A stretch of 64,000 nt of DNA from the human T2T-CHM13v2.0 reference genome, Homo sapiens: positions 57,440,001-57,504,000 of the forward strand of contig CP086569.2 of assembly GCA_009914755.4 (NCBI GenBank), written 5' to 3'. Of this stretch, positions 6,701-35,500 are shown in pieces. The translations under genes were made by a program, and so were the position numbers. The notes beneath the pieces were generated by a model that was not told where the DNA came from, did no database searches, and saw only the letters and a program-made list of their open reading frames with translations. The number at the start of each line of letters is the position of its first letter. The first letter of the stretch is position 1.

Positions 6701-7284
6701 TCGAAACTAATGGACTGGAATAGAATGGACTCGACTGGTACGGACTCCAATGGAATGGAATCGAATGCAAGGGAATCGAACGGAATGGACTCGAAGGGAA
6801 AAGACTGCAATGGAAAGGTCTCGAATGGAATGGAAATTAATGGAATGGATTGGAATCGAATGAAATGGAGTCAAAAGGAATGGAATCGAATGGCAAGAAA
6901 TCGAATGTAATGGAATCGCAAGGAATTGATGTGAACGGAACGGAATGGAATGGAATCCAAAGGAATGGAATAGAATGGAATGGAATCGAATGGAAAGGAC
7001 TCGAATGGAAATCACTCGAATAGAATGCAATTTAATAAAATAGGATCAAATGTAATGGAATGGAATGGAAAGGAATCGAAACGAAAGGAATGGAGACAGA
7101 TGGAATGGAATGGAACAGAGAGCAATGGTATAGAATGGAATGGAATCATCTGGAATGGAATTGAATGGAATGGAATAACATGAAATGGAATGGAATGGAA
7201 TGGAATGCCCTTGAATTAAATGGACTTGAATGGAATGGACTCGAACAGAGTGGAATGGAAAGTGTTGAAATATAATGGAATGGA
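3736..7284 (+). repeat. HOR unit U1 (~3549 bp)
   Basis: Spacing of recurring landmark strings and ORF-track motifs: 'MESNGKDSNG' at 3431 and 6980, and 'ggactc(c/g)tttggaatggtctagtatgcaatgcaatcgactggcaggg' at 3733 and 7284. Confidence 0.85.
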
Positions 7285-10200: not shown

Positions 10201-10783
10201 CGAAACTAATGGACTGGAATAGAATGGACTCGACTGGTACGGACTCCAATGGAATGGAATCGAATGGAAGGGAATCGAACGGAATGGACTCGAAGGGAAA
10301 AGACTGCAATGGAAAGGTCTCGAATGGAATGGAAATTAATGGAATGGAATGGAATCGAATGAAATGGAGTCAAAAGGAATGGAATCGAATGGCAAGAAAT
10401 CGAATGTAATGGAATCACAAGGAATTGATGTGAACGGAACGGAATGGAATGGAATCCAAAGGAATGGAATAGAATGGAATGGAATCGAATGGAAAGGACT
10501 CGAATGGAAATCACTCGAATAGAATGCAATTTAATAAAATAGGATCAAATGTAATGGAATGGAATGGAAAGGAATCGAAACGAAAGGAATGGAGACAGAT
10601 GGAATGGAATGGAACAGAGAGCAATGGTATAGAATGGAATGGAATCATCTGGAATGGAATTGAATGGAATGGAATAACATGAAATGGACTGGAATGGAAT
10701 GGAATGCCCTTGAATTAAATGGACTGGAATGGAATGGACTCGAACAGAGTGGAATGGAAAGTGTTGAAATAGAATGGAATGGA
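7285..10783 (+). repeat. HOR unit U2 (~3499 bp; subtype A)
   Basis: Landmark spacing 6980 to 10479. It lacks the 15-bp 'aaggaaaggaatggaatggatt' insertion that is present in subtype-B units. Confidence 0.85.
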
Positions 10784-13700
10784 CTCGTTTGGAATGGTCT
10801 AGTATGCAATGCAATCGACTGGCAGGGAATCAAAAGGAATGTAATCGAATGGATTGGACTGGAATGCAATGGACTCGAATAGATTGGAAACGGAATGCAA
10901 AGGAATGGAATGGAATAGTATGGAATGGAATGGAAAGGAATGGAGTGGAATAGACTAGAGTGGAATGGAATGGACTCGAAAGCAATGGACTGGAATGGAA
11001 CTTTCTTGAATGGACTGGAATCAAACGGAATGGAATGTAATGCAATCAAATGGCATGGAATAAAATAGAATGAAAGAGAATCAAATGGAATTGAATCGAA
11101 TGGAATCGAATGGATTGGAAAGGAATAGAATGGAATGGAATGGAATTGACTCAAATGGAATGGACTAGAATGGAATGGATTCGAATGGAAGGCAAAGGAA
11201 TGGAATCTATTGGAATGGACTGTAATGGAATGGAATGGAAGGGATTGGAATGGACTCGAATGGAATGGACTGCAATAGAAAGGATTCGAATGGAATGAAA
11301 AAGAATTGAATGGAATAGAACAGAATGGAATCAAATCGAATGAAATGGAATGGAATAGAAAGGAATGGAATGAAATGGAATGGAAAGGATTCGAATGGAA
11401 TGCAATCGAATGGAATGGAATCGAACGGAATGGAATAAAATGGAAGAAAACTGGCAAGAAATGGAATCGAAATGAATGGAGTGTTATGGAACGGACTCAA
11501 AAGGAATTGAATGTAATAGAATGGAGTGGAGTGGACTCGAATATAATAGACTGGAATGGAATGAAATCACATGGAATGGGAACGAATGGAATGGAATGGA
11601 AAGGAATGGAATCGAATGGAAAGGAATCGAATGGAAGGGAATGAAATTGAATCAACAGGAATGGAAAGGAGTAGAATAGACGGTAATGGAATGGGCTCGA
11701 ATAGAATGGACACGAATGCTCAAATTAAATGGACTCGAATTGAATGGAAACGAAAGGAATGTCATCGAATGGAATTGAATCGATTGGAATGAAATCACAT
11801 ATAATGGAGTGGAATCAAATGGAATTGAATCGAAAGGAAAGGAAGCGAATGGACTGAAATGAAATGGAATGGAATTGAATGGAAAGTAATGCAATGGAAT
11901 AGAATGGAAAGAAATTTCACGGAATGGAATCAAACTGAATGGAATCAAATCAATGGAATATAATCAAATGGAATGGAAAGGAATTGAATGGAGTAGATAG
12001 GATTGGATGGGATTGGAATGAAATGTACTGGAAAGGACTCGAATTTCATGAAACGGAATGGAATGAATTAGAACGGAATGGACTCGAATGGAATGGAATA
12101 TCACGGAATGGCATCAAATGGAATGGCATCAATTGGAATGGAATCGAATGCAATGGAATGCTATGGAATGGAATGGAAAGCATTGGAATGGAATGTCCTC
12201 TAATGGAATGGATTCGAGTGGAATGGAATCGAATATAATGGAGTCTAATGAAATGGAATTGAAAGGAATGGGATCCAATACAATGGAATATACTGGAATG
12301 TAATGTAATGAACTCGAATGTAATTGACTGGAATGGAATGTACATGAATGGAATGTAATCGAATGGAAAGTAATCCAATGGAATAGAATCTAATGCAATA
12401 AAATCGACTCAAGTAGAGTAGAATATAATGGAATGGAGTGCAGTGCAATGGAATGGAATGGAATGGAATGCAATGGAATGGAATGGAATGGAATGGAATG
12501 GAATGGGATGGAATGGTATGGAATGGATAGTAATGGACTGGAGTGAAATGGACTGGAAAGGAATGGACTCAAATTGAAAGGGCTCGAAAGGAATGGAGTC
12601 AAATGGAATGGTCTGGAATGGAATGAACACGAATGTAATGCAATCCAATAGAATGGAATCGAATGGCATGGAATATAAAGAAATGGAATCGAAGAGAATG
12701 GAAACAAATGGAATGGAATTGAATGGAATGGAATTGAATGGAATGGGAACGAATGGAGTGAAATTGTATGCAGTAGAAGAGAATAGAATGGAATGCAAGC
12801 GAAAGGAAAGGAATGGATTGGAATGGAATGGAATTCATTGGAATGGAAGGGAATGTAGTGTAATGGACAGGCCTGGAATAAAGTGGAATGCTACGGTCTC
12901 GAATGGAATAAAAATGTATGGAATGGAATGCAATGAAACGGAATCGAATGTCATAGAATGTAATGGAATGCAAAAAAATGGAATCCAAAATCATTGACTG
13001 GAAAGGCTGGGTGTCGAAAGGAATTGACTCCAATGGAATGGAATCGAATGGCATGGAAGTGAATAGAATGGAACTAAATCGAATGGAATGGAATTGATAG
13101 GAACGGAATGGAAAGGAATGCAATGATTTGGCATGGAATGGAATCGAATGGCATCGAATGGAATGGAATGGAATGCAATGGAATGGAATGTATTAGAATG
13201 TAATGAACTTTAATGGAATGTACTCGAATGGATTCGACTGGAATGGAATGTTCTCGAAGTGAATGGACTCCAATGGAATGGATTCGAAAGGAATGGAATC
13301 TAATGGAATGGAATTAAATGGAAATGAATCAAATTGAATAGAACGGAATTGAATTGAATGGAATCGAATGCAATGGAATCTAATGAAAAGGAAAGGAAAG
13401 GAATGGAATGGATTGGAATGGAATGGGCTGGAATGGAATGGAATCGAAACGAATGGAATGGAATCGAACTGAAGAGACTGGAATGGAATGCACTGGAATG
13501 GAAGGGAATGTAATGGAAGGTTCTCAAGAAAAATGGAATCGAAAGGAATGGAATTGAATGGAACGGAATAGAGTCGAATGGAATTCAATGGAATGGAATG
13601 GACTAGAGTGAAATGGAATCGAACCACAAGGAATGGACAGGAATAGAATGGTCTCGAATTGAATAGAATCGTATGGAATGGCATCAAACGGAATGGAATG

Positions 13701-14322
13701 GACAGCCACGGAATGGAATGCACTCGAATGCAATGGAGTCGAAACTAATGGAGTGGAATAGAATGGACTCGACTGGTACGGACTCCAATGGAATGGAATC
13801 GAATGGAAGGGTATCGAACGGAATGGACTCGAAGGGAAAAGACTGCAATGGAAAGGTCTCGAATGGAATGGAAATTAATGGAATGGAATGGAATCGAATG
13901 AAATGGAGTCAAAAGGAATGGAATCGAATGGCAAGAAATCGAATGTAATGGAATCGCAAGGAATTGAAGTGAACGGAACGGAATGCAATGGAATCCAAAG
14001 GAATGGAATAGAATGGAATGGAATCGAATGGAAAGGACTCGAATGGAAATCACTCGAATAGAATGCAATTTAATAAAATAGGATCAAATGTAATGGAATG
14101 GAATGGAAAGGAATCGAAACGAAAGGAATGGAGACAGATGGAATGGAATGGAACAGAGAGCAATGGTATAGAATGGAATGGAATCATCTGGAATGGAATT
14201 GAATGGAATGGAATAATATGAAATGGAATGGAATGGAATGGAATGCCCTTGAATTAAATGGACTGGAATGGAATGGACTCGAACAGAGTGGAATGGAAAG
14301 TGTTGAAATAGAATGGAATGGA
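10784..14322 (+). repeat. HOR unit U3 (~3539 bp; subtype B, near-identical to U4)
   Basis: Landmark spacing 10479 to 14018. It shares private variants with U4: identical artefactual ORFs at 13193 and 16707, and at 13300 and 16814. Confidence 0.85.
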
Positions 14323-17300
14323 CTCGTTTGGAATGGTCTAGTATGCAATGCAATCGACTGGCAGAGAATCAAAAGGAATGTAATCGAATGGATTGGACTG
14401 GAATGCAATGGACTCGAATAGATTGGAAACGGAAAGCAAAGGAATGGAATGGAATAGTATGGAATGGAATGGAAAGGAATGGAGTGGAATAGACTAGAGT
14501 GGAATGGAATGGACTGGAAAGCAATGGACTGGAATGGAACTTTCTTGAATGGACTGGAATCAAACGGAATGGAATGCAATGCAATCAAATGGCATGGAAT
14601 AAAATAGAATGAAAGAGAATCAAATGGAATTGAATCGAATGGAATCGAATGGATTGGAAAGGAATAGAATGGAATGGAACGGAATTGACTCAAATGGAAT
14701 GGACTAGAATGGAATGGATTCGAATGGAAGGCAAATGAATGGAATCTATTGGAATGGACTGTAATGGAATGGAATGGAAGGGATTGGAATGGACTCGAAT
14801 GGAATGGACTGCAATAGAAAGGATTCGAATGGAATGAAAAAGAATTGAATGGAATAGAACAGAATGGAATCAAATCGAATGAAATGGAATGGAAGAGAAA
14901 GGAATGGAATGAAATGGAATGGAAAGGATTCGAATGGAATGCAATCGAATGGAATGGAATCGAACGGAATGGAATAAAATGGAAGAAAACTGGCAAGAAA
15001 TGGAATCGAAATGAATGGAGTGTTATGGAACGGACTCAAAAGGAATTGAATGTAATAGAATGGAGTGGAGTGGACTCGAATATAATGGACTGGAATGGAA
15101 TGAAATCACATGGAATGGGAACGAATGGAATGGAATGGAAAGGAATGGAATCGAATGGAAAGGAATCGAATGGAAGGGAATGAAATTGAATCAACAGGAA
15201 TGGAAGGGAATAGAATAGACGGTAATGGAATGGACTCGAATAGAATGGACACGAATGCTCAAATTGAATGGACTCGAATGGAATGGAAACGAAAGGAATG
15301 TCATCGAATGGAATTGAATCGATTGGAATGAAATCGCATAGAATGGAGTGGAATCAAATGGAATTGAATCGAAAGGAAAGGAAGCGAATGGACTGAAATG
15401 AAATGGAATGGAATTGAATGGAAAGTAATGCAATGGAATAGAATGGAACGAAATTTCACGGAATGGAATCAAACTGAATGGAATCAAATCAATGGAATCA
15501 AATCAAATGGAATGGAAAGGAATTGAATGGAGTAGATTGGATTGGATGGGATTGGAATGAAATGTACTGGAAAGGACTCGAAATTCATGAAACGGAATGG
15601 AATGAACTGGAACGGAATGGAATCGAATGGAATGGAATGTCATGGAATGGCATCAAATGGAATGGAATCGAATGCGATGGAATGCTATGGAATGGAATGG
15701 AATGCATAGGAATGGAATGTCCTCTAATGGAATGTATTCGAGTGGAATGGAATCGAATATAATGGAGTCTAATGAAATGGAATTGAAAGGAATGGGATCG
15801 AATACAATGGAATAAACTGGAATGTAATGTAATGAACTCGAATGTAATTGACTGGAATGGAATGTACATGAATGGAATGTAATCGAATGGAAAGCAATCC
15901 AATGGAATAGAATCTAATGCAATAAAATCGACTCAAATAGAGTAGAATGTAATGGAATGGAGTGCAGTGCAATGGAATGGAATGGAATGCAACGGAATGG
16001 AATGGAATGGAATGGAATGGGATGGAATGGTATGGAATGGATAGTAATGGACTGGAGTGAAATGGACTGGAAAAGAATGGACTCAAATTGAAAGGGCTCG
16101 AAAGGAATGGAGTCAAATGGAATGGTCTGGAATGGAATGAACACGAATGTAATGCAATCCAATAGAATGGAATCGAATGGCATAGAATATAAAGAAATGG
16201 AATCGAAGAGAATGGAAACAAATGGAATGGAATTGAATGGAATGGAATTGAATGGAATGGGAACGAATGGAGTGAAATTGTATGCAGTAGAAGAGAATAG
16301 AATGGAATGCAAGCGAAAGGAAAGGAATGGATTGGAATGGAATGGAATTCATTGGAATGGAAGGGAATGTAGTGTAATGGACAGGCCTGGAATAAAGTGG
16401 AATGCTACGGTCTCGAATGGAATAAAAATGTATGGAATGGAATGCAATGAAACGGAATCGAATGTCATAGAATGTAATGGAATGCAAAAAAATGGACTCC
16501 AAAATCATTGACTGGAAAGGCTGGGTGTCGAAAGGAATTGACTCCAATGGAATGGAATCGAATGGAATGGAAGTGAATAGAATCGAACTAAATCGAATGG
16601 AATGGAATTGATAGGAACGGAATGGAAAGGAATGCAATGATTTGGCATGGAATGGAATCGAATGGCATCGAATGGAATGGAATGGAATGCAATGGAATGG
16701 AATGTATTAGAATGTAATGAACTTTAATGGAATGTACTCGAATGGATTCGACTGGAATGGAATGTTCTCGAAGTGAATGGACTCCAATGGAATGGATTCG
16801 AAAGGAATAGAATCTAATGGAATGGAATTAAATGGAAATGAATCAAATTGAATAGAACGGAATTGAATTGAATGGAATCGAATGCAATGGAATCTAATGA
16901 AAAGGAAAGGAAAGGAATGGAATGGATTGGAATGGAATGGGCTGGAATGGAATGGAATCGAAACGAATGGAATGGAATCGAACTGAAGAGACTGGAATGG
17001 AATGCACTGGAATGGAAGGGAATGTAATGGAAGGTTCTCAAGAAAAATGGAATCGAAAGGAATGGAATTGAATGGAACGGAATAGAGTCGAATGGAATTC
17101 AATGGAATGGAATGGACTAGAGTGAAATGGAATCGAACCACAAGGAATGGACAGGAATAGAATGGTCTCGAATTGAATGGAATCGTATGGAATGGCATCA
17201 AACGGAATGGAATGGACAGCCACGGAATGGAATGCACTCGAATGCAATGGAGTCGACACTAACGGAGTGGAATAGAATGGACTCGACTGGTACGGACTCC

Positions 17301-17836
17301 AATGGAATGGAATCGAATGGAAGGGTATCGAACGGAATGGGCTCGAAGGGAAAAGACTGCAATGGAAAGGTCTCGAATGGAATGGAAATTAATGGAATGG
17401 AATGGAATCGAATGAAATGGAGTCAAAAGGAATGGAATCGAATGGCAAGAAATCGAATGTAATGGAATCGCAAGGAATTGAAGTGAACGGAACGGAATGC
17501 AATGGAATCCAAAGGAATGGAATAGAATGGAATGGAATCGAATGGAAAGGACTCGAATGGAAATCACTCGAATAGAATGCAATTTAATAAAATAGGATCA
17601 AATGTAATGGAATGGAACGGAAAGGAATCGAAACGAAAGGAATGGAGACAGATGGAATGGAATGGAACAGAGAGCAATGGTATAGAATGGAATGGAATCA
17701 TCTGGAATGGAATTGAATGGAATGGAATAATATGAAATGGAATGGAATGGAATGGAATGCCCTTGAATTAAATGGACTGGAATGGAATGGACTCGAACAG
17801 AGTGGAATGGAAAGTGTTGAAATAGAATGGAATGGA
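14323..17836 (+). repeat. HOR unit U4 (~3514 bp; subtype B)
   Basis: Landmark spacing 14018 to 17532. Confidence 0.85.
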
Positions 17837-20800
17837 CTCGTTTGGAATGGTCTAGTATGCAATGCAATCGACTGGCAGGGAATCAAAAGGAATGTAATCG
17901 AATGGATTGGACTGGAATGCAATGGACTCGAATAGATTGGAAACGGAAAGCAAAGGAATGGAATGGAATAGTATGGAATGGAATGGAAAGGAATGGAGTG
18001 GAATAGACTAGAGTGGAATGGAATGGACTGGAAAGCAATGGACTGGAATGGAACTTTCTTGAATGGACTGGAATCAAACGGAATGGAATGCAATGCAATC
18101 AAATGGCATGGAATAAAATAGAATGAAAGAGAATCAAATGGAATTGAATCGAATGGAATCGAATGGATTGGAAAGGAATAGAATGGAATGGAACGGAATT
18201 GACTCAAATGGAATGGACTAGAATGGAATGGATTCGAATGGAAGGCAAATGAATGGAATCTATTGGAATGGACTGTAATGGAATGGAATGGAAGGGATTG
18301 GAATGGACTCGAATGGAATGGACTGCAATAGAAAGGATTCGAATGTAATGAAAAAGAATTGAATGGAATAGAACAGAATGGAATCAAATCGAATGAAATG
18401 GAATGGAAGAGAAAGGAATGGAATGAAATGGAATGGAAAGGATTCGAATGGAATGCAATCGAATGGAATGGAATCGAACGGAATGGAATAAAATGGAAGA
18501 AAACTGGCAAGAAATGGAATCGAAATGAATGGAGTGTTATGGAACGGACTCAAAAGGAATTGAATGTAATAGAATGGAGTGGAGTGGACTCGAATATAAT
18601 GGACTGGAATGGAATGAAATCACATGGAATGGGAACGAATGGAATGGAATGGAAAGGAATGGAATCGAATGGAAAGGAATCGAATGGAAGGGAATGAAAT
18701 TGAATCAACAGGAATGGAAGGGAGTAGAATAGACGGTAATGGAATGGACTCGAATAGAATGGACACGAATGCTCAAATTGAATGGACTCGAATGGAATGG
18801 AAACGAAAGGAATGTCATCGAATGGAATTGAATCGATTGGAATGAAATCGCATAGAATGGAGTGGAATCAAATGGAATTGAATCGAAAGGAAAGGAAGCG
18901 AATGGACTGAAATGAAATGGAATGGAATTGAATGGAAAGTAATGCAATGGAATAGAATGGAACGAAATTTCACGGAATGGAATCAAACTGAATGGAATCA
19001 AATCAATGGAATATAATCAAATGGAATGGAAAGGAATTGAATGGAGTAGATTGGATTGGATGGGATTGGAATGAAATGTACTGGAAAGGACACGAAATTC
19101 ATGAAACGGAATGGAATGAACTGGAACGGAATGGACTCGAATGGAATGGAATGTCATGGAATGGCATCAAATGGAATGGAATCGAATGCGATGGAATGCT
19201 ATGGAATGGAATGGAATGCATTGGAATGGAATGTCCTCTAATGGAATGTATTCGAGTGGAATGGAATCGAATATAATGGAGTCTAATGAAATGGAATTGA
19301 AAGGAATGGGACCGAATACAATGGAATAAACTGGAATGTAATGTAATGAACTCGAATGTAATTGACTGGAATGGAATGTACATGAATGGAATGTAATCGA
19401 ATGGAAAGCAATCCAATGGAATAGAATCTAATGCAATAAAATCGACTCAAATAGAGTAGAATGTAATGGAATGGAGTGCAGTGCAATGGAATGGAATGGA
19501 ATGCAACGGAATGGAATGGAATGGAATGGAATGGGATGGAATGGTATGGAATGGATAGTAATGGACTGGAGTGAAATGGACTGGAAAAGAATGGACTCAA
19601 ATTGAAAGGGCTCGAAAGGAATGGAGTCAAATGGAATGGTCTGGAATGGAATGAACACGAATGTAATGCAATCCAATAGAATGGAATCGAATGGCATGGA
19701 ATATAAAGAAATGGAATCGAAGAGAATGGAAACAAATGGAATGGAATTGAATGGAATGGAATTGAATGGAATGGGAACGAATGGAGTGAAATTGTATGCA
19801 GTAGAAGAGAATAGAATGGAATGCAAGCGAAAGGAAAGGAATGGATTGGAATGGAATGGAATTCATTGGAATGGAAGGGAATGTAGTGTAATGGACAGGC
19901 CTGGAATAAAGTGGAATGCTACGGTCTCGAATGGAATAAAAATGTATGGAATGGAATGCAATGAAACGGAATCGAATGTCATAGAATGTAATGGAATGCA
20001 AAAAAATGGACTCCAAAATCATTGACTGGAAAGGCTGGGTGTCGAAAGGAATTGACTCCAATGGAATGGAATCGAATGGAATGGAAGTGAATAGAATCGA
20101 ACTAAATCGAATGGAATGGAATTGATAGGAACGGAATGGAAAGGAATGCAATGACTTGGCATGGAATGGAATCGAAAGGCATCGAATGGAATGGAATGGA
20201 ATGCAATGGAATGGAATGTATTAGAATGTAATGAACATTAATGGAAAGTACTCGAATGGATTCGACTGGAATGGAATGTTCTGGAAGTGAATGGACTCCA
20301 ATGGAATGGATTCGAAAGGAATGGAATCGAACGGAATGGAATTAAACGGAAATGAATCAAATAGAATAGAACGGAATTGAATTGAATGGAATCGAATGCA
20401 ATGGAATCTAATGAAACGGAAAGGAATGAAATGGAATGGGCTGGAATGGAATGGAATCGAAACGAATGGAATGGAATCGAACTGAAGAGACTGGAATGGA
20501 ATGCACTGGAATGGAAGGGAATGTAATGGAAGGTTCTCGAAAAAAATGGAATCGAAAGGAATGGAATTGAATGGAACGGAATAGAGTCGAATGGAATTGA
20601 ATGGAATGGAATGGACTAGAGTGAAATGGAATCGAACCACAAGGAATGGACAGGAATAGAATGGTCTCGAATTGAATGGAATCGTATGGAATGGCATCAA
20701 ACGGAATGGAATGGACGGCCACGGAATGGAATGCACTCGAATGCAATGGAGTCGAAACTAATGGACTGGAATAGAATGGACTCGACTGGTACGGACTCCA

Positions 20801-21335
20801 ATGGAATGGAATCGAATGGAAGGGAATCGAACGGAATGGACTCGAAGGGAAAAGACTGCAATGGAAAGGTCTCGAATGGAATGGAAATTAATGGAATGGA
20901 ATGGAATCGAATGAAATGGAGTCAAAAGGAATGGAATCGAATGGCAAGAAATCGAATGTAATGGAATCGCAAGGAATTGATGTGAACGGAACGGAATGGA
21001 ATGGAATCCAAAGGAATGGAATAGAATGGAATGGAATCGAATGGAAAGGACTCGAATGGAAATCACTCGAATAGAATGCAATTTAATAAAATAGGATCAA
21101 ATGTAATGGAATGGAATGGAAAGGAATCGAAACGAAAGGAATGGAGACAGATGGAATGGAATGGAACAGAGAGCAATGGTATAGAATGGAATGGAATCAT
21201 CTGGAATGGAATTGAATGGAATGGAATAATATGAAATGGAATGGAATGGAATGGAATGCCCTTGAATTAAATGGACTGGAATGGAATGGACTCGAACAGA
21301 GTGGAATGGAAAGTGTTGAAATAGAATGGAATGGA
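17837..21335 (+). repeat. HOR unit U5 (~3499 bp; subtype A, near-identical to U6)
   Basis: Landmark spacing 17532 to 21031. It has a private 'gacggccacgg' variant that creates an extra GGCC at 20717-20720. Confidence 0.85.
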
Positions 21336-24300
21336 CTCGTTTGGAATGGTCTAGTATGCAATGCAATCGACTGGCAGGGAATCAAAAGGAATGTAATCGA
21401 ATGGATTGGACTGGAATGCAATGGACTCGAATAGATTGGAAACGGAAAGCAAAGGAATGGAATGGAATAGTATGGAATGGAATGGAAAGGAATGGAGTGG
21501 AATAGACTAGAGTGGAATGGAATGGACTCGAAAGCAATGGACTGGAATGGAACTTTCTTGAATGGACTGGAATCAAACGGAATGGAATGCAATGCAATCA
21601 AATGGCATGGAATAAAATAGAATGAAAGAGAATCAAATGGAATTGAATCGAATGGAATCGAATGGATTGGAAAGGAATAGAATGGAATGGAATGGAATTG
21701 ACTCAAATGGAATGGACTAGAATGGAATGGATTCGAATGGAAGGCAAAGGAATGGAATCTATTGGAATGGACTGTAATGGAATGGAATGGAAGGGATTGG
21801 AATGGACTCGAATGGAATGGACTGCAGTAGAAAGGATTCGAATGGAATGAAAAAGAATTGAATGGAATAGAACAGAATGGAATCAAATCGAATGAAATGG
21901 AATGGAATAGAAAGGAATGGAATGAAATGGAATGGAAAGGATTCGAATGGAATGCAATCGAATGGAATGCAATCGAATGGAATGGAATCGAACGGAATGG
22001 AATAAAATGGAAGAAAACTGGCAAGAAATGGAATCGAAATGAATGGAGTGTTACGGAACGGACTCAAAAGGAATTGAATGTAATAGAATGGAGTGGAGTG
22101 GACTCGAATATAATGGACTAGAATGGAATGAAATCACATGGAATGGGAACGAATGGAATGGAATGGAAAGGAATGGAATCGAATGGAAAGGAATCGAATG
22201 GAAGGGAATGAAATTGAATCAACAGGAATGGAAGGGAGTAGAATAGACGGTAATGGAATGGACTCGAATAGAATGGACACGAATGCTCAAATTGAATGGA
22301 CTCGAATGGAATGGCAACGAAAGGAATGTCATCGAATGGAATTGAATCGTTGGAATGAAATCACATAGAATGGAGTGGAATCAAATGGAATTGAATCGAA
22401 AGGAAAGGAAGCGAATGGACTGAAATGAAATGGAATGGAATTGAATGGAAATTAATGCAATGGAATAGAATGGAACGAAATTTCACGGAATGGAATCAAA
22501 CTGAATGGAATCAAATCAATGGAATCAAATCAAATGGAATGGAAAGGAATTGAATGGAGTAGATTGGATTGGATGGGATTGGAATGAAATGTACTGGAAA
22601 GGACTCGAATTTCATGAAACGGAATGGAATGAATTGGAACGGAATGGACTCGAATGGAATGGAATGTCATGGAATGGCATCAAATGGAATGGAATCGAAT
22701 GCAATGGAATGCTATGGAATGGAATGGAATGCATTGGAATGGAATGTCCTCTAATGGAATGTATTCGAGTGGAATGGAATCGAATATAATGGAGTCTATT
22801 GAAATGGAATTGAAAGGAATGGGACCGAATACAATGGAACAAACTGGAATGTAATGTAATGAACTCGAATGTAATTGACTGGAATGGAATGTACATGAAT
22901 GGAATGTAATCGAATGGAAAGCAATCCAATGGAATAGAATCTAATGCAATAAAATCGACTCAAATAGAGTAGAATGTAATGGAATGGAGTGCAGTGCAAT
23001 GGAATGGAATGGAATGCAATGGAATGGAATGGAATGGAATGGAATGGGATGGAATGGTATGGAATGGATAGTAATGGACTGGAGTGAAATGGACTGGAAA
23101 AGAATGGACTCAAATTGAAAGGGCTCGAAAGGAATGGAGTCAAATGGAATGGTCTGGAATGGAATGAACACGAATGTAATGCAATCCAATAGAATGGAAT
23201 CGAATGGCATGGAATATAAAGAAATGGAATCGAAGAGAATGGAAACAAATGGAATGGAATTGAATGGAATGGAATTGAATGGAATGGGAACGAATGGAGT
23301 GAAATTGTATGCAGTAGAAGAGAATAGAATGGAATGCAAGCGAAAGGAAAGGAATGGATTGGAATGGAATGGAATTCATTGGAATGGAAGGGAATGTAGT
23401 GTAATGGACAGGCCTGGAATAAAGTGGAATGCTACGGTCTCGAATGGAATAAAAATGTATGGAATGGAATGCAATGAAACGGAATCGAATGTCATAGAAT
23501 GTAATGGAATGCAAAAAAATGGACTCCAAAATCATTGACTGGAAAGGCTGGGTGTCGAAAGGAATTGACTCCAATGGAATGGAATCGAATGGAATGGAAG
23601 TGAATAGAATCGAACTAAATCGAATGGAATGGAATTGATAGGAACGGAATGGAAAGGAATGCAATGATTTGGCATGGAATGGAATCGAAAGGCATCGAAT
23701 GGAATGGAATGGAATGCAATGGAATGGAATGTATTAGAATGTAATGAACATTAATGGAAAGTACTCGAATGGATTCGACTGGAATGGAATGTTCTGGAAG
23801 TGAATGGACTCCAATGGAATGGATTCGAAAGGAATGGAATCGAACGGAATGGAATTAAACGGAAATGAATCAAATAGAATAGAACGGAATTGAATTGAAT
23901 GGAATCGAATGCAATGGAATCTAATGAAACGGAAAGGAATGGAATGGAATGGGCTGGAATGGAATGGAATCGAAACGAATGGAATGGAATCGAACTGAAG
24001 AGACTGGAATGGAATGCACTGGAATGGAAGGGAATGTAATGGAAGGTTCTCGAAAAAAATGGAATCGAAAGGAATGGAATTGAATGGAACGGAATAGAGT
24101 CGAATGGAATTGAATGGAATGGAATGGACTAGAGTGAAATGGAATCGAACCACAAGGAATGGACAGGAATAGAATGGTCTCGAATTGAATGGAATCGTAT
24201 GGAATGGCATCAAACGGAATGGAATGGACGGCCACGGAATGGAATGCACTCGAATGCAATGGAGTCGAAACTAATGGACTGGAATAGAATGGACTCGACT

Positions 24301-24848
24301 GGTACGGACTCCAATGGAATGGAATCGAATGGAAGGGAATCGAACGGAATGGACTCGAAGGGAAAAGACTGCAATGGAAAGGTCTCGAATGGAATGGAAA
24401 TTAATGGAATGGAATGGAATCGAATGAAATGGAGTCAAAAGGAATGGAATCGAATGGCAAGAAATCGAATGTAATGGAATCGCAAGGAATTGATGTGAAC
24501 GGAACGGAATGGAATGGAATCCAAAGGAATGGAATAGAATGGAATGGAATCGAATGGAAAGGACTCGAATGGAAATCACTCGAATAGAATGCAATTTAAT
24601 AAAATAGGATCAAATGTAATGGAATGGAATGGAAAGGAATCGAAACGAAAGGAATGGAGACAGATGGAATGGAATGGAACAGAGAGCAATGGTATAGAAT
24701 GGAATGGAATCATCTGGAATGGAATTGAATGGAATGGAATAATATGAAATGGAATGGAATGGAATGGAATGCCCTTGAATTAAATGGACTGGAATGGAAT
24801 GGACTCGAACAGAGTGGAATGGAAAGTGTTGAAATAGAATGGAATGGA
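21336..24848 (+). repeat. HOR unit U6 (~3513 bp; subtype A)
   Basis: Landmark spacing 21031 to 24544. It carries the same extra GGCC at 24230-24233. Confidence 0.85.
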
Positions 24849-27800
24849 CTCGTTTGGAATGGTCTAGTATGCAATGCAATCGACTGGCAGGGAATCAAAA
24901 GGAATGTAATCGAATGGATTGGACTGGAATGCAATGGACTCGAATAGATTGGAAACGGAAAGCAAAGGAATGGAATGGAATAGTATGGAATGGAATGGAA
25001 AGGAATGGAGTGGAATAGACTAGAGTGGAATGGAATGGACTCGAAAGCAATGGACTGGAATGGAACTTTCTTGAATGGACTGGAATCAAACGGAATGGAA
25101 TGCAATGCAATCAAATGGCATGGAATAAAATAGAATGAAAGAGAATCAAATGGAATTGAATCGAATGGAATCGAATGGATTGGAAAGGAATAGAATGGAA
25201 TGGAATGGAATTGACTCAAATGGAATGGACTAGAATGGAATGGATTGGAATGGAAGGCAAAGGAATGGAATCTATTGGAATGGACTGTAATGGAATGGAA
25301 TGGAAGGGATTGGAATGGACTCGAATGGAATGGACTGCAGTAGAAAGGATTCGAATGGAATGAAAAAGAATTGAATGGAATAGAACAGAATGGAATCAAA
25401 TCGAATGAAATGGAATGGAATAGAAAGGAATGGAATGAAATGGAATGGAAAGGATTCGAATGGAATGCAATCGAATGGAATGAAATCGAATGGAATGGAA
25501 TCGAACGGAATGGAGTAAAATGGAAGAAAACTGGCAAGAAATGGAATCGAAATGAATGGAGTGTTATGGAACGGACTCAAAAGGAATTGAATGTAATAGA
25601 ATGGAGTGGAGTGGACTCGAATATAATGGACTAGAATGGAATGAAATCACATGGAATGGGAACGAATGGAATGGAATGGAAAGGAATGGAATCGAATGGA
25701 AAGGAATCGAATGGAAGGGAATGAAATTGAATCAACAGGAATGGAAGGGAGTAGAATAGACGGTAATGGAATGGACTCGAATAGAATGGACACGAATGCT
25801 CAAATTGAATGGACTCGAATGGAATGGCAACGAAAGGAATGTCATCGAATGGAATTGAATCGATTGGAATGAAATCACATAGAATGGAGTGGAATCAAAT
25901 GGAATTGAATCGAAAGGAAAGGAAGCGAATGGACTGAAATGAAATGGAATGGAATTGAATGGAAATTAATGCAATGGAATAGAATGGAACGAAATTTCAC
26001 GGAATGGAATCAAACTGAATGGAATCAAATCAATGGAATATAATCAAATGGAATGGAAAGGAATTGAATGGAGTAGATTGGATTGGATGGGATTGGAATG
26101 AAATGTACTGGAAAGGACTCGAATTTCATGAAACGGAATGGAATGAATTGGAACGGAATGGACTCGAATGGAATGGAATGTCATGGAATGGCATCAAATG
26201 GAATGGAATCGAATGCGATGGAATGCTATGGAATGGAATGGAATGCATTGGAATGGAATGTCCTCTAATGGAATGTATTCGAGTGGAATGGAATCGAATA
26301 TAATGGAGTCTAATGAAATGGAATTGAAAGGAATGGGACCGAATACAATGGAATATACTGGAATGTAATGTAATGAACTCGAATGTAATTGACTGGAATG
26401 GAATGTACATGAATGGAATGTAATCGAATGGAAAGCAATCCAATGGAATAGAATCTAATGCAATAAAATCGACTCAAATAGAGTAGAATGTACTGGAATG
26501 GAGTACAGTGCAATGGAATGGAATGGAATGGAATGCAATGGAATGGAATGGAATGGAATGGGATGGAATGGTATGGAATGGATAGTAATGGACTGGAGTG
26601 AAATGGACTGGAAAAGAATGGACTCAAATTGAAAGGGCTCGAAAGGAATGGAGTCAAATGGAATGGTCTGGAATGGAATGAACACGAATGTAATGCAATC
26701 CAATAGAATGGAATCGAATGGCATGGAATATAAAGAAATGGAATCGAAGAGAATGGAAACAAATGGAATGGAATTGAATGGAATGGAATTGAATGGAATG
26801 GGAACGAATGGAGTGAAATTGTATGCAGTAGAAGAGAATAGAATGGAATGCAAGCGAAAGGAAAGGAATGGATTGGAATGGAATGGAATTCATTGGAATG
26901 GAAGGGAATGTAGTGTAATGGACAGGCCTGGAATAAAGTGGAATGCTACGGTCTCGAATGGAATAAAAATGTATGGAATGGAATGCAATGAAACGGAATC
27001 GAATGTCATAGAATGTAATGGAATGCAAAAAAATGGACTCCAAAATCATTGACTGGAAAGGCTGGGTGTCGAAAGGAATTGACTCCAATGGAATGGAATC
27101 GAATGGAATGGAAGTGAATAGAATCGAACTAAATCGAATGGAATGGAATTGATAGGAACGGAATGGAAAGGAATGCAATGATTTGGCATGGAATGGAATC
27201 GAATGGCATCGAATGGAATGGAATGGAATGCAATGGAATGGAATGTATTAGAATGTAATGAACTTTAATGGAATGTACTCGAATGGATTCGACTGGAATG
27301 GAATGTTCTGGAAGTGAATGGACTCCAATGGAATGGATTCGAAAGGAATGGAATCTAATGGAATGGAATTAAATGGAAATGAATCAAATTGAATAGAACG
27401 GAATTGAATTGAATGGAATCGAATGCAATGGAATCTAATGAAACGGAAAGGAAAGGAATGGAATGGATTGGAATGGAATGGGCTGGAATGGAATGGAATC
27501 GAAACGAATGGAATGGAATCGAACTGAAGAGACTGGAATGGAATGCACTGGAATGGAAGGGAATGTAATGGAAGGTTCTCGAAAAAAATGGAATCGAAAG
27601 GAATGGAATTGAATGGAACGGAATAGAGTCGAATGGAATTCAATGGAATGGAATGGACTAGAGTGAAATGGAATCGAACCACAAGGAATGGACAGGAATA
27701 GAATGGTCTCGAATTGAATGGAATCGTATGGAATGGCATCAAACGGAATGGAATGGACAGCCACGGAATGGAATGGACACCCACGGAATGGAATGCACTC

Positions 27801-28397
27801 GAATGCAATGGAGTCGACACTAATGGACTGGAATAGAATGGACTCGACTGGTACGGACTCCAATGGAATGGAATCGAATGGAAGGGAATCGAAAGGAATG
27901 GACTCGAAGGGAAAAGACTGCAATGGAAAGGTCTCGAATGGAATGGAAATTAATGGAATGGAATGGAATCGAATGAAATGGAGTCAAAAGGAATGGAATC
28001 GAATGGCAAGAAATCGAATGTAATGGAATCGCAAGGAATTGATGTGAACGGAACGGAATGGAATGGAATCCAAAGGAATGGAATAGAATGGAATGGAATC
28101 GAATGGAAAGGACTCGAATGGAAATCACTCGAATAGAATGCAATTTAATAAAATAGGATCAAATGTAATGGAATGGAACGGAAAGGAATCGAAACGAAAG
28201 GAATGGAGACAGATGGAATGGAATGGAACAGAGAGCAATGGTATAGAATGGAATGGAATCATCTGGAATGGAATTGAATGGAATGGAATAATATGAAATG
28301 GAATGGAATGGAATGGAATGCCCTTGAATTAAATGGACTGGAATGGAATGGACTCGAACAGAGTGGAATGGAAAGTGTTGAAATAGAATGGAATGGA
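24849..28397 (+). repeat. HOR unit U7 (~3549 bp; subtype B, near-identical to U8)
   Basis: Landmark spacing 24544 to 28093. It contains a 20-bp tandem duplication at 27745-27784. Confidence 0.85.
27745..27784 (+). repeat. 20-bp direct tandem duplication (ggaatggaatggacagccac / ggaatggaatggacacccac), private to U7 and U8.
   Basis: Read directly; other units have a single copy. The same duplication is at 31294-31333 in U8. Confidence 0.8.
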
Positions 28398-31300
28398 CTC
28401 GTTTGGAATGGTCTAGTATGCAATGCAATCGACTGGCAGGGAATCAAAAGGAATGTAATCGAATGGATTGGACTGGAATGCAATGGACTCGAATAGATTG
28501 GAAACGGAAAGCAAAGGAATGGAATGGAATAGTATGGAATGGAATGGAAAGGAATGGAGTGGAATAGACTAGAGTGGAATGGAATGGACTCGAAAGCAAT
28601 GGACTGGAATGGAACTTTCTTGAATGGACTGGAATCAAACGGAATGGAATGCAATGCAATCAAATGGCATGGAATAAAATAGAATGAAAGAGAATCAAAT
28701 GGAATTGAATCGAATGGAATCGAATGGATTGGAAAGGAATAGAATGGAATGGAATGGAATTGACTCAAATGGAATGGACTAGAATGGAATGGATTCGAAT
28801 GGAAGGCAAAGGAATGGAATCTATTGGAATGGACTGTAATGGAATGGAATGGAAGGGATTGGAATGGACTCGAATGGAATGGACTGCAGTAGAAAGGATT
28901 CGAATGGAATGAAAAAGAATTGAATGGAATAGAACAGAATGGAATCAAATCGAATGAAATGGAATGGAATAGAAAGGAATGGAATGAAATGGAATGGAAA
29001 GGATTCGAATGGAATGCAATCGAATGGAATGAAATCGAATGGAATGGAATCGAACGGAATGGAATAAAATGGAAGAAAACTGGCAAGAAATGGAATCGAA
29101 ATGAATGGAGTGTTATGGAACGGACTCAAAAGGAATTGAATGTAATAGAATGGAGTGGAGTGGACTCGAATATAATGGACTAGAATGGAATGAAATCACA
29201 TGGAATGGGAACGAATGGAATGGAATGGAAAGGAATGGAATCGAATGGAAAGGAATCGAATGGAAGGGAATGAAATTGAATCAACAGGAATGGAAGGGAG
29301 TAGAATAGACGGTAATGGAATGGACTCGAATAGAATGGACACGAATGCTCAAATTGAATGGACTCGAATGGAATGGCAACGAAAGGAATGTCATCGAATG
29401 GAATTGAATCGATTGGAATGAAATCACATAGAATGGAGTGGAATCAAATGGAATTGAATCGAAAGGAAAGGAAGCGAATGGACTGAAATGAAATGGAATG
29501 GAATTGAATGGAAATTAATGCAATGGAATAGAATGGAACGAAATTTCACGGAATGGAATCAAACTGAATGGAATCAAATCAATGGAATATAATCAAATGG
29601 AATGGAAAGGAATTGAATGGAGTAGATTGGATTGGATGGGATTGGAATGAAATGTACTGGAAAGGACTCGAATTTCATGAAACGGAATGGAATGAATTGG
29701 AACGGAATGGACTCGAATGGAATGGAATGTCATGGAATGGCATCAAATGGAATGGAATCGAATGCGATGGAATGCTATGGAATGGAATGGAATGCATTGG
29801 AATGGAATGTCCTCTAATGGAATGTATTCGAGTGGAATGGAATCGAATATAATGGAGTCTAATGAAATGGAATTGAAAGGAATGGGACCGAATACAATGG
29901 AATATACTGGAATGTAATGTAATGAACTCGAATGTAATTGACTGGAATGGAATGTACATGAATGGAATGTAATCGAATGGAAAGCAATCCAATGGAATAG
30001 AATCTAATGCAATAAAATCGACTCAAATAGAGTAGAATGTAATGGAATGGAGTACAGTGCAATGGAATGGAATGGAATGGAATGCAATGGAATGGAATGG
30101 AATGGAATGGGATGGAATGGTATGGAATGGATAGTAATGGACTGGAGTGAAATGGACTGGAAAAGAATGGACTCAAATTGAAAGGGCTCGAAAGGAATGG
30201 AGTCAAATGGAATGGTCTGGAATGGAATGAACACGAATGTAATGCAATCCAATAGAATGGAATCGAATGGCATGGAATATAAAGAAATGGAATCGAAGAG
30301 AATGGAAACAAATGGAATGGAATTGAATGGAATGGAATTGAATGGAATGGGAACGAATGGAGTGAAATTGTATGCAGTAGAAGAGAATAGAATGGAATGC
30401 AAGCGAAAGGAAAGGAATGGATTGGAATGGAATGGAATTCATTGGAATGGAAGGGAATGTAGTGTAATGGACAGGCCTGGAATAAAGTGGAATGCTACGG
30501 TCTCGAATGGAATAAAAATGTATGGAATGGAATGCAATGAAACGGAATCGAATGTCATAGAATGTAATGGAATGCAAAAAAATGGACTCCAAAATCATTG
30601 ACTGGAAAGGCTGGGTGTCGAAAGGAATTGACTCCAATGGAATGGAATCGAATGGAATGGAAGTGAATAGAATCGAACTAAATCGAATGGAATGGAATTG
30701 ATAGGAACGGAATGGAAAGGAATGCAATGATTTGGCATGGAATGGAATCGAATGGCATCGAATGGAATGGAATGGAATGCAATGGAATGGAATGTATTAG
30801 AATGTAATGAACTTTAATGGAATGCACTCGAATGGATTCGACTGGAATGGAATGTTCTGGAAGTGAATGGACTCCAATGGAATGGATTCGAAAGGAATGG
30901 AATCTAATGGAATGGAATTAAATGGAAATGAATCAAATTGAATAGAACGGAATTGAATTGAATGGAATCGAATGCAATGGAATCTAATGAAACGGAAAGG
31001 AAAGGAATGGAATGGATTGGAATGGAATGGGCTGGAATGGAATGGAATCGAAACGAATGGAATGGAATCGAACTGAAGAGACTGGAATGGAATGCACTGG
31101 AATGGAAGGGAATGTAATGGAAGGTTCTCGAAAAAAATGGAATCGAAAGGAATGGAATTGAATGGAACGGAATAGAGTCGAATGGAATTGAATGGAATGG
31201 AATGGACTAGAGTGAAATGGAATCGAACCACAAGGAATGGACAGGAATAGAATGGTCTCGAATTGAATGGAATCGTATGGAATGGCATCAAACGGAATGG

Positions 31301-31946
31301 AATGGACAGCCACGGAATGGAATGGACACCCACGGAATGGAATGCACTCGAATGCAATGGAGTCGACACTAATGGACTGGAATAGAATGGACTCGACTGG
31401 TACGGACTCCAATGGAATGGAATCGAATGGAAGGGAATCGAAAGGAATGGACTCGAAGGGAAAAGACTGCAATGGAAAGGTCTCGAATGGAATGGAAATT
31501 AATGGAATGGAATGGAATCAAATGAAATGGAGTCAAAAGGAATGGAATCGAATGGCAAGAAATCAAATGTAATGGAATCGCAAGGAATTGATGTGAACGG
31601 AACGGAATGGAATGGAATCCAAAGGAATGGAATAGAATGGAATGGAATCGAATGGAAAGGACTCGAATGGAAATCACTCGAATAGAATGCAATTTAATAA
31701 AATAGGATCAAATGTAATGGAATGGAACGGAAAGGAATCGAAACGAAAGGAATGGAGACAGATGGAATGGAATGGAACAGAGAGCAATGGTATAGAATGG
31801 AATGGAATCATCTGGAATGGAATTGAATGGAATGGAATAATATGAAATGGAATGGAATGGAATGGAATGCCCTTGAATTAAATGGACTGGAATGGAATGG
31901 ACTCGAACAGAGTGGAATGGAAAGTGTTGAAATAGAATGGAATGGA
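28398..31946 (+). repeat. HOR unit U8 (~3549 bp; subtype B)
   Basis: Landmark spacing 28093 to 31642. It carries the same 20-bp tandem duplication at 31294-31333. Confidence 0.85.
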
Positions 31947-34900: not shown

Positions 34901-35500
34901 CTCGAATGCAATGGAGTCGACACTAATGGACTGGAATAGAATGGACTCGACTGGTACGGACTCCAATGGAATGGAATCGAATGGAAGGGAATCGAACGGA
35001 ATGGACTCGAAGGGAAAAGACTGCAATGGAACGGTCTCGAATGGAATGGAAATTAATGGAATGGAATAGAATCGAATGAAATGGAGTCAAAAGGAATGGA
35101 ATCGAATGGCAAGAAATCGAATGTAATGGAATCGCAAGGAATTGATGTGAACGGAACGGAATGGAATGGAATCCAAAGGAATGGAATAGAATGGAATGGA
35201 ATCGAATGGAAAGGACTCGAATGGAAATCACTCGAATAGAATGCAATTTAATAAAATAGGATCAAATGTAATGGAATGGAATGGAAAGGAATCGAAACGA
35301 AAGGAATGGAGACAGATGGAATGGAATGGAACAGATAGCAATGGTATACAATGGAATGGAATCATCTGGAATGGAATTGAATGGAATGGAATAATATGAA
35401 ATGGAATGGAATGGAATGGAATGGAATGCCCTTGAATTAAATGGACTGGACTCGAACAGAGTGGAATGGAAAGTGTTGAGATAGAATGGAATGGACTCCT
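31947..35500 (+). repeat. HOR unit U9 (~3554 bp)
   Basis: Landmark spacing 31642 to 35196. It has a 10-bp deletion at ~35440 ('aaatggactggactcg' against the canonical 'aaatggactggaatggaatggactcg'). Confidence 0.85.

What the first reader, a model, noticed from the sequence alone, without database searches (positions are those of the whole stretch)
10784..31946. Mosaic of two unit subtypes and near-identical adjacent pairs (U3/U4, U5/U6, U7/U8)
Subtype B units (U3, U4, U7, U8) share a ~15-bp insertion, 'taatgaaa(a/c)ggaaaggaaaggaatggaatggattgg', and 'IPLKFITF'-type variants. Subtype A units (U2, U5, U6) lack the insertion and share 'YFPLMFITF'. Within each adjacent pair the sequences are almost identical, including private changes. 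These are the extra GGCC 'gacggccacgg' in U5 and U6, the 20-bp duplication in U7 and U8, and the 15-bp 'HSIAFHSIAFHS' pentamer gain in U5-U7 at about 21.2, 24.7 and 28.3 kb. Separately, the 'FLCFPFPIY' substitution marks U3-U8. Units U10-U14 form another homogeneous block that shares the fused 305-aa artefactual ORF. The pattern A B B A A B B suggests single-unit and possibly multi-unit unequal crossing-over.
Basis: seen in the sequence. Interest (0 to 1): 0.5.

Follow-up and report, generated by a model that had tools for sequence, protein, structure and literature searches.

The report
Human Y DYZ1 satellite, local duplications
This is the well-known 3.5-kb DYZ1 (HSat3A6) satellite of the human Y chromosome long arm, and the near-identical neighbouring repeats are best explained as hybrid units left by three separate one-unit duplications, which is how such arrays are already known to evolve.

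Summary
The window is a human Y-chromosome DYZ1 / HSat3A6 array. It holds 17 complete units of about 3.5 kb plus one partial unit, and it starts at position 957 after an 85% AT flank. The evidence is the (GGAAT)n base, one HaeIII site per unit, published DYZ1 primers and an HSat3A6 24-mer at the expected positions, 38.7% GC and one CpG per 35 bp.

All the marker indels are clean multiples of 5 bp. Several labels are off by one unit, and the A/B split is too simple. The "B insertion" site has three states. IPLKFITF is the majority state, not a B marker. Only U7/U8 are near-identical over a whole unit (0.2%). U3/U4 differ by 1.3%.

Units U4 and U6 are mosaics:
- U4 has the left part of U5 and the right part of U3, with a breakpoint at 16584-16641.
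- U6 has the left part of U7/U8 and the right part of U5, with a breakpoint at 22634-22842.

This is the pattern expected from a one-unit unequal exchange. Three unit-long tracts of near-identity between neighbours, each in a different phase, explain A B B A A B B starting from A B A B.

Divergence rises steadily with distance (Mantel r = 0.50, p = 0.0003), so there is no super-HOR. The same variants occur in DYZ1 fragments from unrelated samples. The finding is ordinary and already known.

The parts
1..956 (.). AT-rich non-DYZ1 flank, probably the AT-rich part of a DYZ2 / HSat1B unit
   Evidence: This stretch is 85% AT with one CpG per 191 bp. The literature describes DYZ1 arrays alternating with DYZ2, which has a region of more than 85% AT. 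Locus L017 also has DYZ1 next to AT-rich DNA and matches window 6-94 at 90%. No named DYZ2 reference was available for a direct comparison.
957..3735 (-). U0, a degenerate edge unit of the DYZ1 array (2779 bp)
   Evidence: About 770 bp are deleted, including the HaeIII site. U0 is 2.5-3.1% divergent from all other units and has 47 private substitutions.
3736..64000 (-). DYZ1 / HSat3A6 array: units U1-U16 (3499-3569 bp, U11 4352 bp) and partial U17. The published DYZ1 orientation (TTCCA strand) is the window's minus strand.
   Evidence: Supported by unit segmentation, one HaeIII site per unit, DYZ1 primers, the HSat3A6 24-mer, and GC and CpG content.
7285..10783 (-). U2, with a type A right part (10-bp loss, YFPLMFITF variant)
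10784..14322 (-). U3, inferred parent unit with a type B right part (5-bp TGGAT gain at 13409-13413)
14323..17836 (-). U4, a hybrid unit. The left part is like U5 and the right part is like U3. The TGGAT gain lies at 16923-16927.
   Evidence: The triplet test found 56 of 60 sites concordant with a single breakpoint, p = 0.0002. Segment trees agree.
16584..16641 (.). Breakpoint interval of hybrid U4
17837..21335 (-). U5, inferred parent unit. It is U4-like up to 19507-19698 and U6-like after that. The extra HaeIII site lies at 20717-20720.
21336..24848 (-). U6, a hybrid unit. The left part is like U7/U8 and the right part is like U5. The 15-bp gain lies at 21943-21957 and the extra HaeIII site at 24230-24233.
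   Evidence: The triplet test found 34 of 38 sites concordant, p = 0.0002.
22634..22842 (.). Breakpoint interval of hybrid U6
24849..28397 (-). U7. It carries the 15-bp gain at 25456-25470, the TGGAT gain at 27464-27468 and the 20-bp duplication at 27761-27780.
28398..31946 (-). U8, a near-copy of U7 with 7 substitutions and no indel. It carries the 15-bp gain at 29005-29019, the TGGAT gain at 31013-31017 and the 20-bp duplication at 31310-31329.
12785..16600 (.). Tract I, nearly identical to the sequence one unit downstream (about 0.5% differences)
19600..22634 (.). Tract II, nearly identical to the sequence one unit downstream (0.3% differences)
24285..28785 (.). Tract III, nearly identical to the sequence one unit downstream (0.2% differences)
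40562..42139 (.). 785-bp tandem duplication inside U11. It gives a second HaeIII site (41951) and a second EcoRI site (41912).

Best explanation
**What it is.** The window is the edge of a DYZ1 (HSat3A6) satellite array from the heterochromatic long arm (Yq12) of the human Y chromosome. It begins next to an AT-rich, DYZ2-like flank.

It reflects local turnover of 3.5-kb units. Three separate misaligned exchanges, each offset by one unit, each added one unit. They were most probably between sister chromatids, because this region has no homologue to pair with.

**Expected signature.** An exchange between neighbours P and Q leaves P-H-Q. The new unit H has Q's left part and P's right part, joined at the crossover point. 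U4 lies between U3 and U5 and fits this pattern. U6 lies between U5 and U7 and also fits. U8 is a near-copy of U7.

**History.** Starting from U2(A) U3(B) U5(A) U7(B'), these three events give the observed A B B A A B' B'.

**Small indels.** They are multiples of 5 bp, as expected from slippage in the pentamer register.

**What is shown.** The identity of the repeat, the reality of the indels, the mosaic structure with its breakpoints, and the decay of similarity with distance.

**What is inferred.** That the mosaics arose by reciprocal unequal exchange rather than by long gene conversion, the order of events (U4 oldest, U8 youngest, from 0.5%, 0.3% and 0.2% differences), and the sister-chromatid setting.

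**ORFs.** They are by-products of a stop-free pentamer repeat and are not genes.
For: **Identity of the repeat**
- The array is based on (GGAAT)n with a period of about 3.5 kb.
- There is one HaeIII site per unit, and unit U10 is 3569 bp, the modal DYZ1 HaeIII fragment length in Hallast et al..
- Primers recalled from memory as the classic DYZ1 pair hit once per unit and are spaced to give 154 bp.
- Six of the eight DYZ1 primers in PMC3925983 hit about once per unit, at the published distances from the HaeIII site.
- The HSat3A6 24-mer from PMC4022460 hits twice per unit.
- GC is 38.7% and CpG density is 1 per 35.3 bp. The published DYZ1 values are 38% and 1 per 35 bp.

**Mosaics**
- The informative-site matrix shows block-wise sharing.
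- Left and right trees conflict with 90-99% bootstrap support.
- Single-breakpoint triplet tests give p = 0.0002 for U4 and U6 and p = 0.015 for U11, which has the left part of U12 and the right part of U10.
- There are three unit-long tracts of near-identity between neighbours, in different phases.

**Local homogenisation**
- Mantel r = 0.50, p = 0.0003. Neighbour divergence is 1.19% against 1.60% overall, p = 0.0001.

**Literature**
- Yq12 rearrangement patterns fit unequal exchange, and sister chromatid exchanges were seen in Yq12 in about 15% of Strand-seq libraries.
- Units in the middle of arrays are more homogeneous than those at the edges.
Against: - A long gene-conversion tract of 2 kb or more, copied from one neighbour, would produce the same hybrid units without changing the unit count. 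Nothing in one haplotype separates the two mechanisms.
- U5 and U16 have the opposite orientation, left like the upstream neighbour and right like the downstream one. This fits their role as parents of neighbouring hybrids, or a deletion-type hybrid, but it is not independent support.
- The U8 test is uninformative (p = 1.0), because U8 is almost wholly U7-like.
- The pairs still differ by 0.2-0.5%, so these are not recent events. Later conversion may have blurred the history.
- The 15-bp gain shared by U2 and U6-U8 on otherwise different backgrounds needs either recurrence or a short conversion.
Confidence: 0.7

Rival explanations
1. The hybrid units arose by non-reciprocal gene conversion between neighbouring units. 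Tracts of about 1.5-2.5 kb were copied into existing units, with no change in unit number.
For: - The mosaic pattern is equally compatible with this reading.
- Pedigree work classed 6 of 35 de novo Yq12 events as gene conversion.
- The 15-bp gain shared by U2 and U6-U8 looks like a short patch.
Against: - Each hybrid shows one breakpoint within the unit, not two.
- The near-identity tracts between neighbours are each about one unit long and run across unit boundaries, as a one-unit duplication predicts.
- The required tracts would be long for gene conversion.
Confidence: 0.2
2. There is a multi-unit higher-order periodicity, or a multi-unit duplication. A 2- or 4-unit block (A B or A B B A) was copied as a whole.
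For: - In the right third of U2-U8, divergence at a lag of 4 units (0.99%) is about the same as at a lag of 1 unit (0.96%) and lower than at a lag of 2 units (1.52%).
- After removing the hybrids, the right parts alternate A B A B'.
Against: - That comparison rests on only three unit pairs.
- The left part and the whole unit show monotonic decay, and so does the whole array up to a lag of 12 units.
- The alternation is confined to one segment of about 450 bp.
- B in U3/U4 and B' in U7/U8 differ at about 10 informative sites.
Confidence: 0.05
3. The mosaic units are assembly or polishing chimeras, made when reads from different near-identical units were merged.
For: Satellite arrays are error-prone in assemblies. 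Some of the external long-read contigs are very noisy, with up to 149 gap openings over roughly 11.8-11.9 kb of alignment.
Against: - The blocks are long and internally consistent, and each changes state once.
- Private substitutions per unit are few in U5-U8, only 2-4.
- The U7/U8 haplotype, including the 20-bp duplication, recurs at 99.07% identity in an independent sample, L006.
Confidence: 0.05

Closest known systems
DYZ1 / HSat3A6, the 3.56-kb HaeIII repeat of human Yq12
   Same: - The window has the same pentamer base, unit length and single HaeIII site per unit.
- Published primers and the subfamily 24-mer match at the expected positions.
- GC and CpG content match.
- Units are 97-99.8% identical to one another, and the window units are mostly about 97-99.5% identical to external DYZ1 fragments (a few noisy long-read contigs 94-97%).
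- An AT-rich neighbour is present.
- Supported.
   Different: Nothing differs in kind. The window sits at an array edge, so it shows a degenerate first unit and somewhat more diverged units than the more than 98% identity reported for the bulk of the array.
Local homogenisation of tandem arrays by unequal exchange, as reported for Yq12, DYZ19 and centromeric alpha-satellite HOR arrays
   Same: Similarity decays with distance. Edge units are the most diverged. Adjacent near-copies and hybrid units are present.
   Different: Published Yq12 descriptions work at the scale of whole arrays and 5-kb windows. Here single-unit hybrids and their breakpoints are resolved, which is a finer view of the same process.
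Alpha-satellite super-HORs, meaning periodicities above the basic HOR
   Same: Variant unit types occur in a short, patterned run (A B B A A B B).
   Different: There is no periodic signal at 2, 3 or 4 units. The pattern is explained by three independent duplications.

Membership tests
DYZ1 / HSat3A6 (human Y) | Built from diverged copies of the pentamer GGAAT / TTCCA | tested here: met
   Tandem Repeats Finder reports periods of 15, 30 and 45 with a consensus of (ATGGA)n across 977-64000. The five rotations of GGAAT are by far the commonest 5-mers.
DYZ1 / HSat3A6 (human Y) | Higher-order unit of about 3.5-3.6 kb, released by HaeIII | tested here: met
   Units are 3499-3569 bp long. One canonical GGCC site recurs per unit at 5822, 9346 and so on to 63191. 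One unit is exactly 3569 bp, the modal fragment length in Hallast et al..
DYZ1 / HSat3A6 (human Y) | Matches published DYZ1-specific primers at the published positions | tested here: met
   Primers B-G of PMC3925983 Table 5 hit about once per unit (12-18 sites each, the fewest for B) with 0-1 mismatch. Four of them (E, C/F, D and G) were checked for position and lie 868, 1688, 2581 and 2639 bp from the HaeIII site. Primers A and H did not match at 1 mismatch or fewer. A 154-bp primer pair recalled from memory also fits, but its source could not be confirmed in the paper library.
DYZ1 / HSat3A6 (human Y) | Carries the HSat3A6 subfamily 24-mer | tested here: met
   TCGTTTCGATTCCTTTCCATTCCA from PMC4022460 gives 34 hits at 1 mismatch or fewer, against 0 expected by chance.
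DYZ1 / HSat3A6 (human Y) | Base composition of 38% GC and about one CpG per 35 bp | tested here: met
   The array is 38.7% GC with one CpG per 35.3 bp (compared).
DYZ1 / HSat3A6 (human Y) | Located on Yq12 and male-specific | not testable with these tools
   No human genome assembly is available to search. Related fragments were found only as human contamination in metagenome contigs.
DYZ1 / HSat3A6 (human Y) | Arrays alternate with DYZ2 / HSat1B | tested here: inconclusive
   The flank 1-956 is 85% AT, like the AT-rich part of DYZ2. It was not matched to a named DYZ2 sequence, and a 23-mer from it found nothing in genome contigs.
Super-HOR (periodicity of several units) | Similarity peaks at a multiple of the unit length | tested here: not met
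   Mean divergence at lags of 1 to 12 units rises steadily: 1.19, 1.45, 1.48, 1.51, 1.60 and on to 1.92%.
Protein-coding gene (the 270-313 aa ORFs) | Similarity to a protein family above threshold and a non-repetitive sequence | tested here: not met
   Only sub-threshold hits to low-complexity families were found: Extensin_1 at 39 bits against a cutoff of 105, and Pentapeptide_4 at 27 bits against 38. The translation is an FHSIP-type pentapeptide repeat.

The most novel reading that the evidence does not exclude
Before the three single-unit duplications, this array edge may have carried a real two-unit (about 7 kb) alternation of A-type and B-type units. That would be a dimeric higher-order structure within DYZ1, surviving only at poorly homogenised array edges. 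Alternatively, unit-level exchange breakpoints in DYZ1 may recur at preferred positions in the unit.
Probability: 0.07. Interest if true: 0.3.

Novelty: already known. Interest (0 to 1): 0.12.

Why it matters
This has little importance beyond book-keeping. It shows that the window is ordinary human Y heterochromatin, and that its internal pattern is what unequal exchange in a tandem array is known to produce. It has two small uses. First, it is a worked example of single-unit hybrid repeats with mapped breakpoints in DYZ1. Second, the variant types seen here (10-bp loss, 5-bp gain, 20-bp duplication) are DYZ1-wide subfamily markers found in unrelated samples, so they could serve to type units across complete Y assemblies.

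Tried and rejected
- **Super-HOR.** The lag profile over U1-U16 and within U2-U8 shows no peak. The only dip, at a lag of 4 units in the right third, rests on three unit pairs.
- **Ancestral two-unit duplication U2U3 to U5U7.** The alternation is limited to one segment of about 450 bp, and the left halves do not support it.
- **Micro-conversion between adjacent pentamers as the source of the many transversions.** Variant bases do not match the base 5 bp away more often than at other offsets. The figures are 0.22 against about 0.5, and the deficit simply reflects the periodicity.
- **Difference-free run lengths as a duplication detector.** They were too sensitive to scattered private changes and were replaced by binned difference counts.
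- **Confirming the classic 154-bp primer pair in the paper library.** No paper holds the exact strings, so primers printed in PMC3925983 were used instead.
- **Identifying the left flank as DYZ2.** A genome-contig scan with a 23-mer from it gave no hit. No DYZ2 primers were found in the T2T-Y text.
- **Placing external fragments into the unit alignment.** Several long or noisy fragments were misaligned, with apparent divergence of 25-38%, so BLAST identities were used instead.
- **ORFs as genes.** Rejected.
Full report
**What the window is**

Tandem Repeats Finder reports one array from 977 to 64000 built on (ATGGA)n. GC is a steady 0.38-0.40 with strong G-over-C skew after an AT-rich start. 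A 300-bp probe taken at 10784 recurs at 97-100% identity about every 3.5 kb. That gives these unit starts:
- U0 957, U1 3736, U2 7285, U3 10784, U4 14323, U5 17837
- U6 21336, U7 24849, U8 28398, U9 31947, U10 35496, U11 39065
- U12 43417, U13 46956, U14 50490, U15 54038, U16 57566, U17 61100 (partial)

Unit lengths are 3499-3569 bp, except U0 (2779 bp) and U11 (4352 bp).

Several lines identify the repeat as DYZ1:
- One canonical HaeIII site recurs per unit.
- A primer pair I recalled as the classic DYZ1 pair matches once per unit and is spaced to give 154 bp. I could not confirm its source in the library.
- I therefore tested the eight DYZ1 primers printed in PMC3925983. Six match about once per unit with 0-1 mismatch, on the strand that makes the window's minus strand the published orientation. 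Four of them lie 868, 1688, 2581 and 2639 bp from the HaeIII site, as published.
- The HSat3A6 24-mer listed in PMC4022460 hits twice per unit.
- The array is 38.7% GC with one CpG per 35.3 bp. Hallast et al. give 38% and one per 35 bp for DYZ1.
- The first 956 bases are 85% AT. This fits the AT-rich part of DYZ2, with which DYZ1 arrays alternate.

The window is therefore the edge of a human Yq12 DYZ1 array. Chromosomal position itself could not be tested.

**Check of the observation**

The finding's span is exactly U3-U8.

Confirmed:
- The B motif is present only in U3, U4, U7 and U8.
- GACGGCCACGG is present only in U5 and U6.
- The 20-bp duplication is present only in U7 and U8.
- YFPLMFITF is present only in U2, U5 and U6.
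- There are five 305-aa ORFs.
- All the marker indels are clean multiples of 5 bp in a MAFFT alignment of units that are 97-99.8% identical, so they are not artefacts.

Corrections:
- The B site has three states. The majority state is in U0, U1 and U9-U17. State A is a 10-bp loss. State B is a 5-bp gain.
- IPLKFITF is the majority state, present in 13 units.
- The 15-bp gain is in U2, U6, U7 and U8, at 7892, 21943, 25456 and 29005. The quoted 21.2, 24.7 and 28.3 kb are the ends of the 275-aa ORFs that contain it.
- FLCFPFPIY lies just inside U4-U9.
- Only U7/U8 are near-identical throughout (7 substitutions). U5/U6 have 22, of which 20 are in the left 1.7 kb. U3/U4 differ by 1.3%, more than U4/U5 at 1.0%.

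**Mosaic structure**

The 105 parsimony-informative sites fall into blocks. Neighbour-joining trees with 200 bootstraps conflict between parts of the unit:

| Part of unit | Groupings and bootstrap support |
|---|---|
| Whole unit | U7+U8 100%, U10+U11 99%, U2-U8 99%, U5+U6 61%, U3+U4 50% |
| Left half | U4+U5 97%, U6+U7+U8 90% |
| Right third | U3+U4 99%, U2+U5+U6 99%, U3+U4+U7+U8 90% |

Triplet tests, with site order shuffled as the control, gave these results:

| Unit | Left part like | Right part like | Breakpoint | Discordant sites | p |
|---|---|---|---|---|---|
| U4 | U5 | U3 | 16584-16641 | 4 of 60 | 0.0002 |
| U6 | U8 | U5 | 22634-22842 | 4 of 38 | 0.0002 |
| U11 | U12 | U10 | 39407-39501 | 7 of 42 | 0.015 |

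Comparing the array with itself one unit downstream shows three low-difference tracts:
- about 12785-16600, 0.5% differences
- 19600-22634, 0.3% differences
- about 24285-28785, 0.2% differences

Each tract is about one unit long and each is in a different phase. They are separated by stretches with about 1.0-1.9% differences.

**Mechanism**

A crossover between chromatids misaligned by one unit leaves, in the duplication product, P-H-Q. The new unit H has the left part of Q and the right part of P. This follows from the geometry of unequal exchange.
- U3-U4-U5, U5-U6-U7 and U10-U11-U12 all have this orientation.
- U7-U8 fits a crossover near the unit start. U8 and U9 differ by only 1 site in the first eighth of the unit, but the test has no power there.
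- Starting from U2(A) U3(B) U5(A) U7(B'), three single-unit duplications give A B B A A B' B'. No multi-unit event is needed.

The T2T-Y paper states that Yq12 patterns fit unequal exchange and reports sister chromatid exchanges there. Hallast et al. describe homogenisation in array centres and divergence at the edges. The second point matches U0, which is the most diverged unit at 2.5-3.1%.

Long gene conversion cannot be excluded from one haplotype, and I give it about 0.2.

**Periodicity**

Mean divergence rises steadily from 1.19% at a lag of 1 unit to 1.92% at a lag of 12 units. Mantel r is 0.50 with p = 0.0003, and neighbours are closer than random orderings at p = 0.0001. The only non-monotonic signal is in the right third of U2-U8 (0.99% at a lag of 4 units), from three unit pairs. 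With the hybrids removed, the A/B alternation is confined to one segment of about 450 bp. There is no super-HOR.

**Related sequences elsewhere**

One metagenome scan with a pattern spanning the three-state site returned 35 human-derived contigs. Among 39 sites:
- 29 carry the majority state.
- 5 carry the B gain, one of them with the U3/U4-type A variant.
- 1 carries the A loss.
- 4 carry other variants.

L006 matches U7/U8 at 99.07%, including the 20-bp duplication and both 15-bp losses. Its match to U4 is 97.8%. L001, L002, L005, L029 and L035 also match U7/U8 best. Most of the other loci match U10, U11, U14 or U16 best.

The "private" changes are therefore markers of DYZ1 subfamilies present in other samples. 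The U9-U17 type is close to the general consensus. Assembly collapse biases these frequencies.

**Age (rough inference)**

PMC13252187 reports 40 de novo Yq12 single-nucleotide variants in six father-son transmissions and a mean Yq12 length of 27 Mb. That is about 2.5e-7 per bp per generation. The 0.2-0.5% differences then correspond to roughly 4,000-10,000 generations. At an ordinary Y-chromosome rate (from memory, about 3e-8 per bp per generation) the events would be several times older. Either way they are old, which fits a quiet array edge.

**ORFs**

The 270-313 aa ORFs are read-through of a stop-free pentamer repeat. The translation is an FHSIP-type repeat, and only sub-threshold low-complexity Pfam hits appear.

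**Verdict**

The object and the process are already known, so interest is low.

Noticed in passing
window 1-956: The non-satellite flank is 85% AT with one CpG per 191 bp, and DYZ1 homology begins at about 952-957. It is probably the AT-rich part of a DYZ2 / HSat1B unit. L017 (contig BNJU01004413.1) also has DYZ1 next to AT-rich DNA and matches window 6-94 at 90%.
   Followed up: partly
window 957-3735 (U0): The first unit of the array is degenerate. About 770 bp are missing, including the HaeIII site and the 154-bp primer sites, and there are several further 15-35 bp losses. It has 47 private substitutions and is 2.5-3.1% divergent from every other unit. This fits the published finding that array edges are more diverged.
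   Followed up: partly
window 40562-42139 (U11): A 785-bp tandem duplication lies inside one unit, with few mismatches between the copies. It creates a second HaeIII site (41951) and a second EcoRI site (41912), so this unit would give 785-bp and 3537-bp HaeIII fragments.
   Followed up: partly
whole array, 957-64000: Among 348 unit variants, transversions outnumber transitions (189 to 159). Only 49 variants lie at consensus CpG sites, although CpG is dense. This spectrum is unusual for human point mutation. A test for copying from the adjacent pentamer was negative.
   Followed up: partly
window 7892-7906, 21943-21957, 25456-25470, 29005-29019: The same 15-bp gain (TCGAATGGAATGCAA) is in U2 and in U6-U8, although the sequence around it in U2 belongs to a different haplotype. 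This needs either recurrent slippage or a short conversion patch.
   Followed up: no
window 57566-61099 (U16): U16 is also a mosaic. Its left part is like U15 and its right part is like U17, with a breakpoint at 58209-58522 (p = 0.0005). This is the opposite orientation to U4, U6 and U11.
   Followed up: partly
window 10042, 13581, 17095, 27636: A second EcoRI site (GAATTC) is present in U2, U3, U4 and U7 but not in U5, U6 or U8, so it cuts across the A/B classes. The U7/U8 difference is one of their seven substitutions (27641, C in U7, G in U8).
   Followed up: no
loci L001-L035: Human DYZ1 sequence is present in 35 stretches of public metagenome assemblies from about 31 distinct contigs, including two contigs of about 55 kb (BNJT01001888.1 and BNJU01004413.1). 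This is the contamination of databases by Y satellites that the T2T-Y paper warns about.
   Followed up: partly
window 35400-35404 and equivalents in U9-U16: One extra AATGG pentamer near the unit end is shared by U9-U16, and U15 has two extra. This indel, together with a linked G variant, coincides with the switch from 270-aa to 305/313-aa artefactual ORFs across unit junctions.
   Followed up: partly
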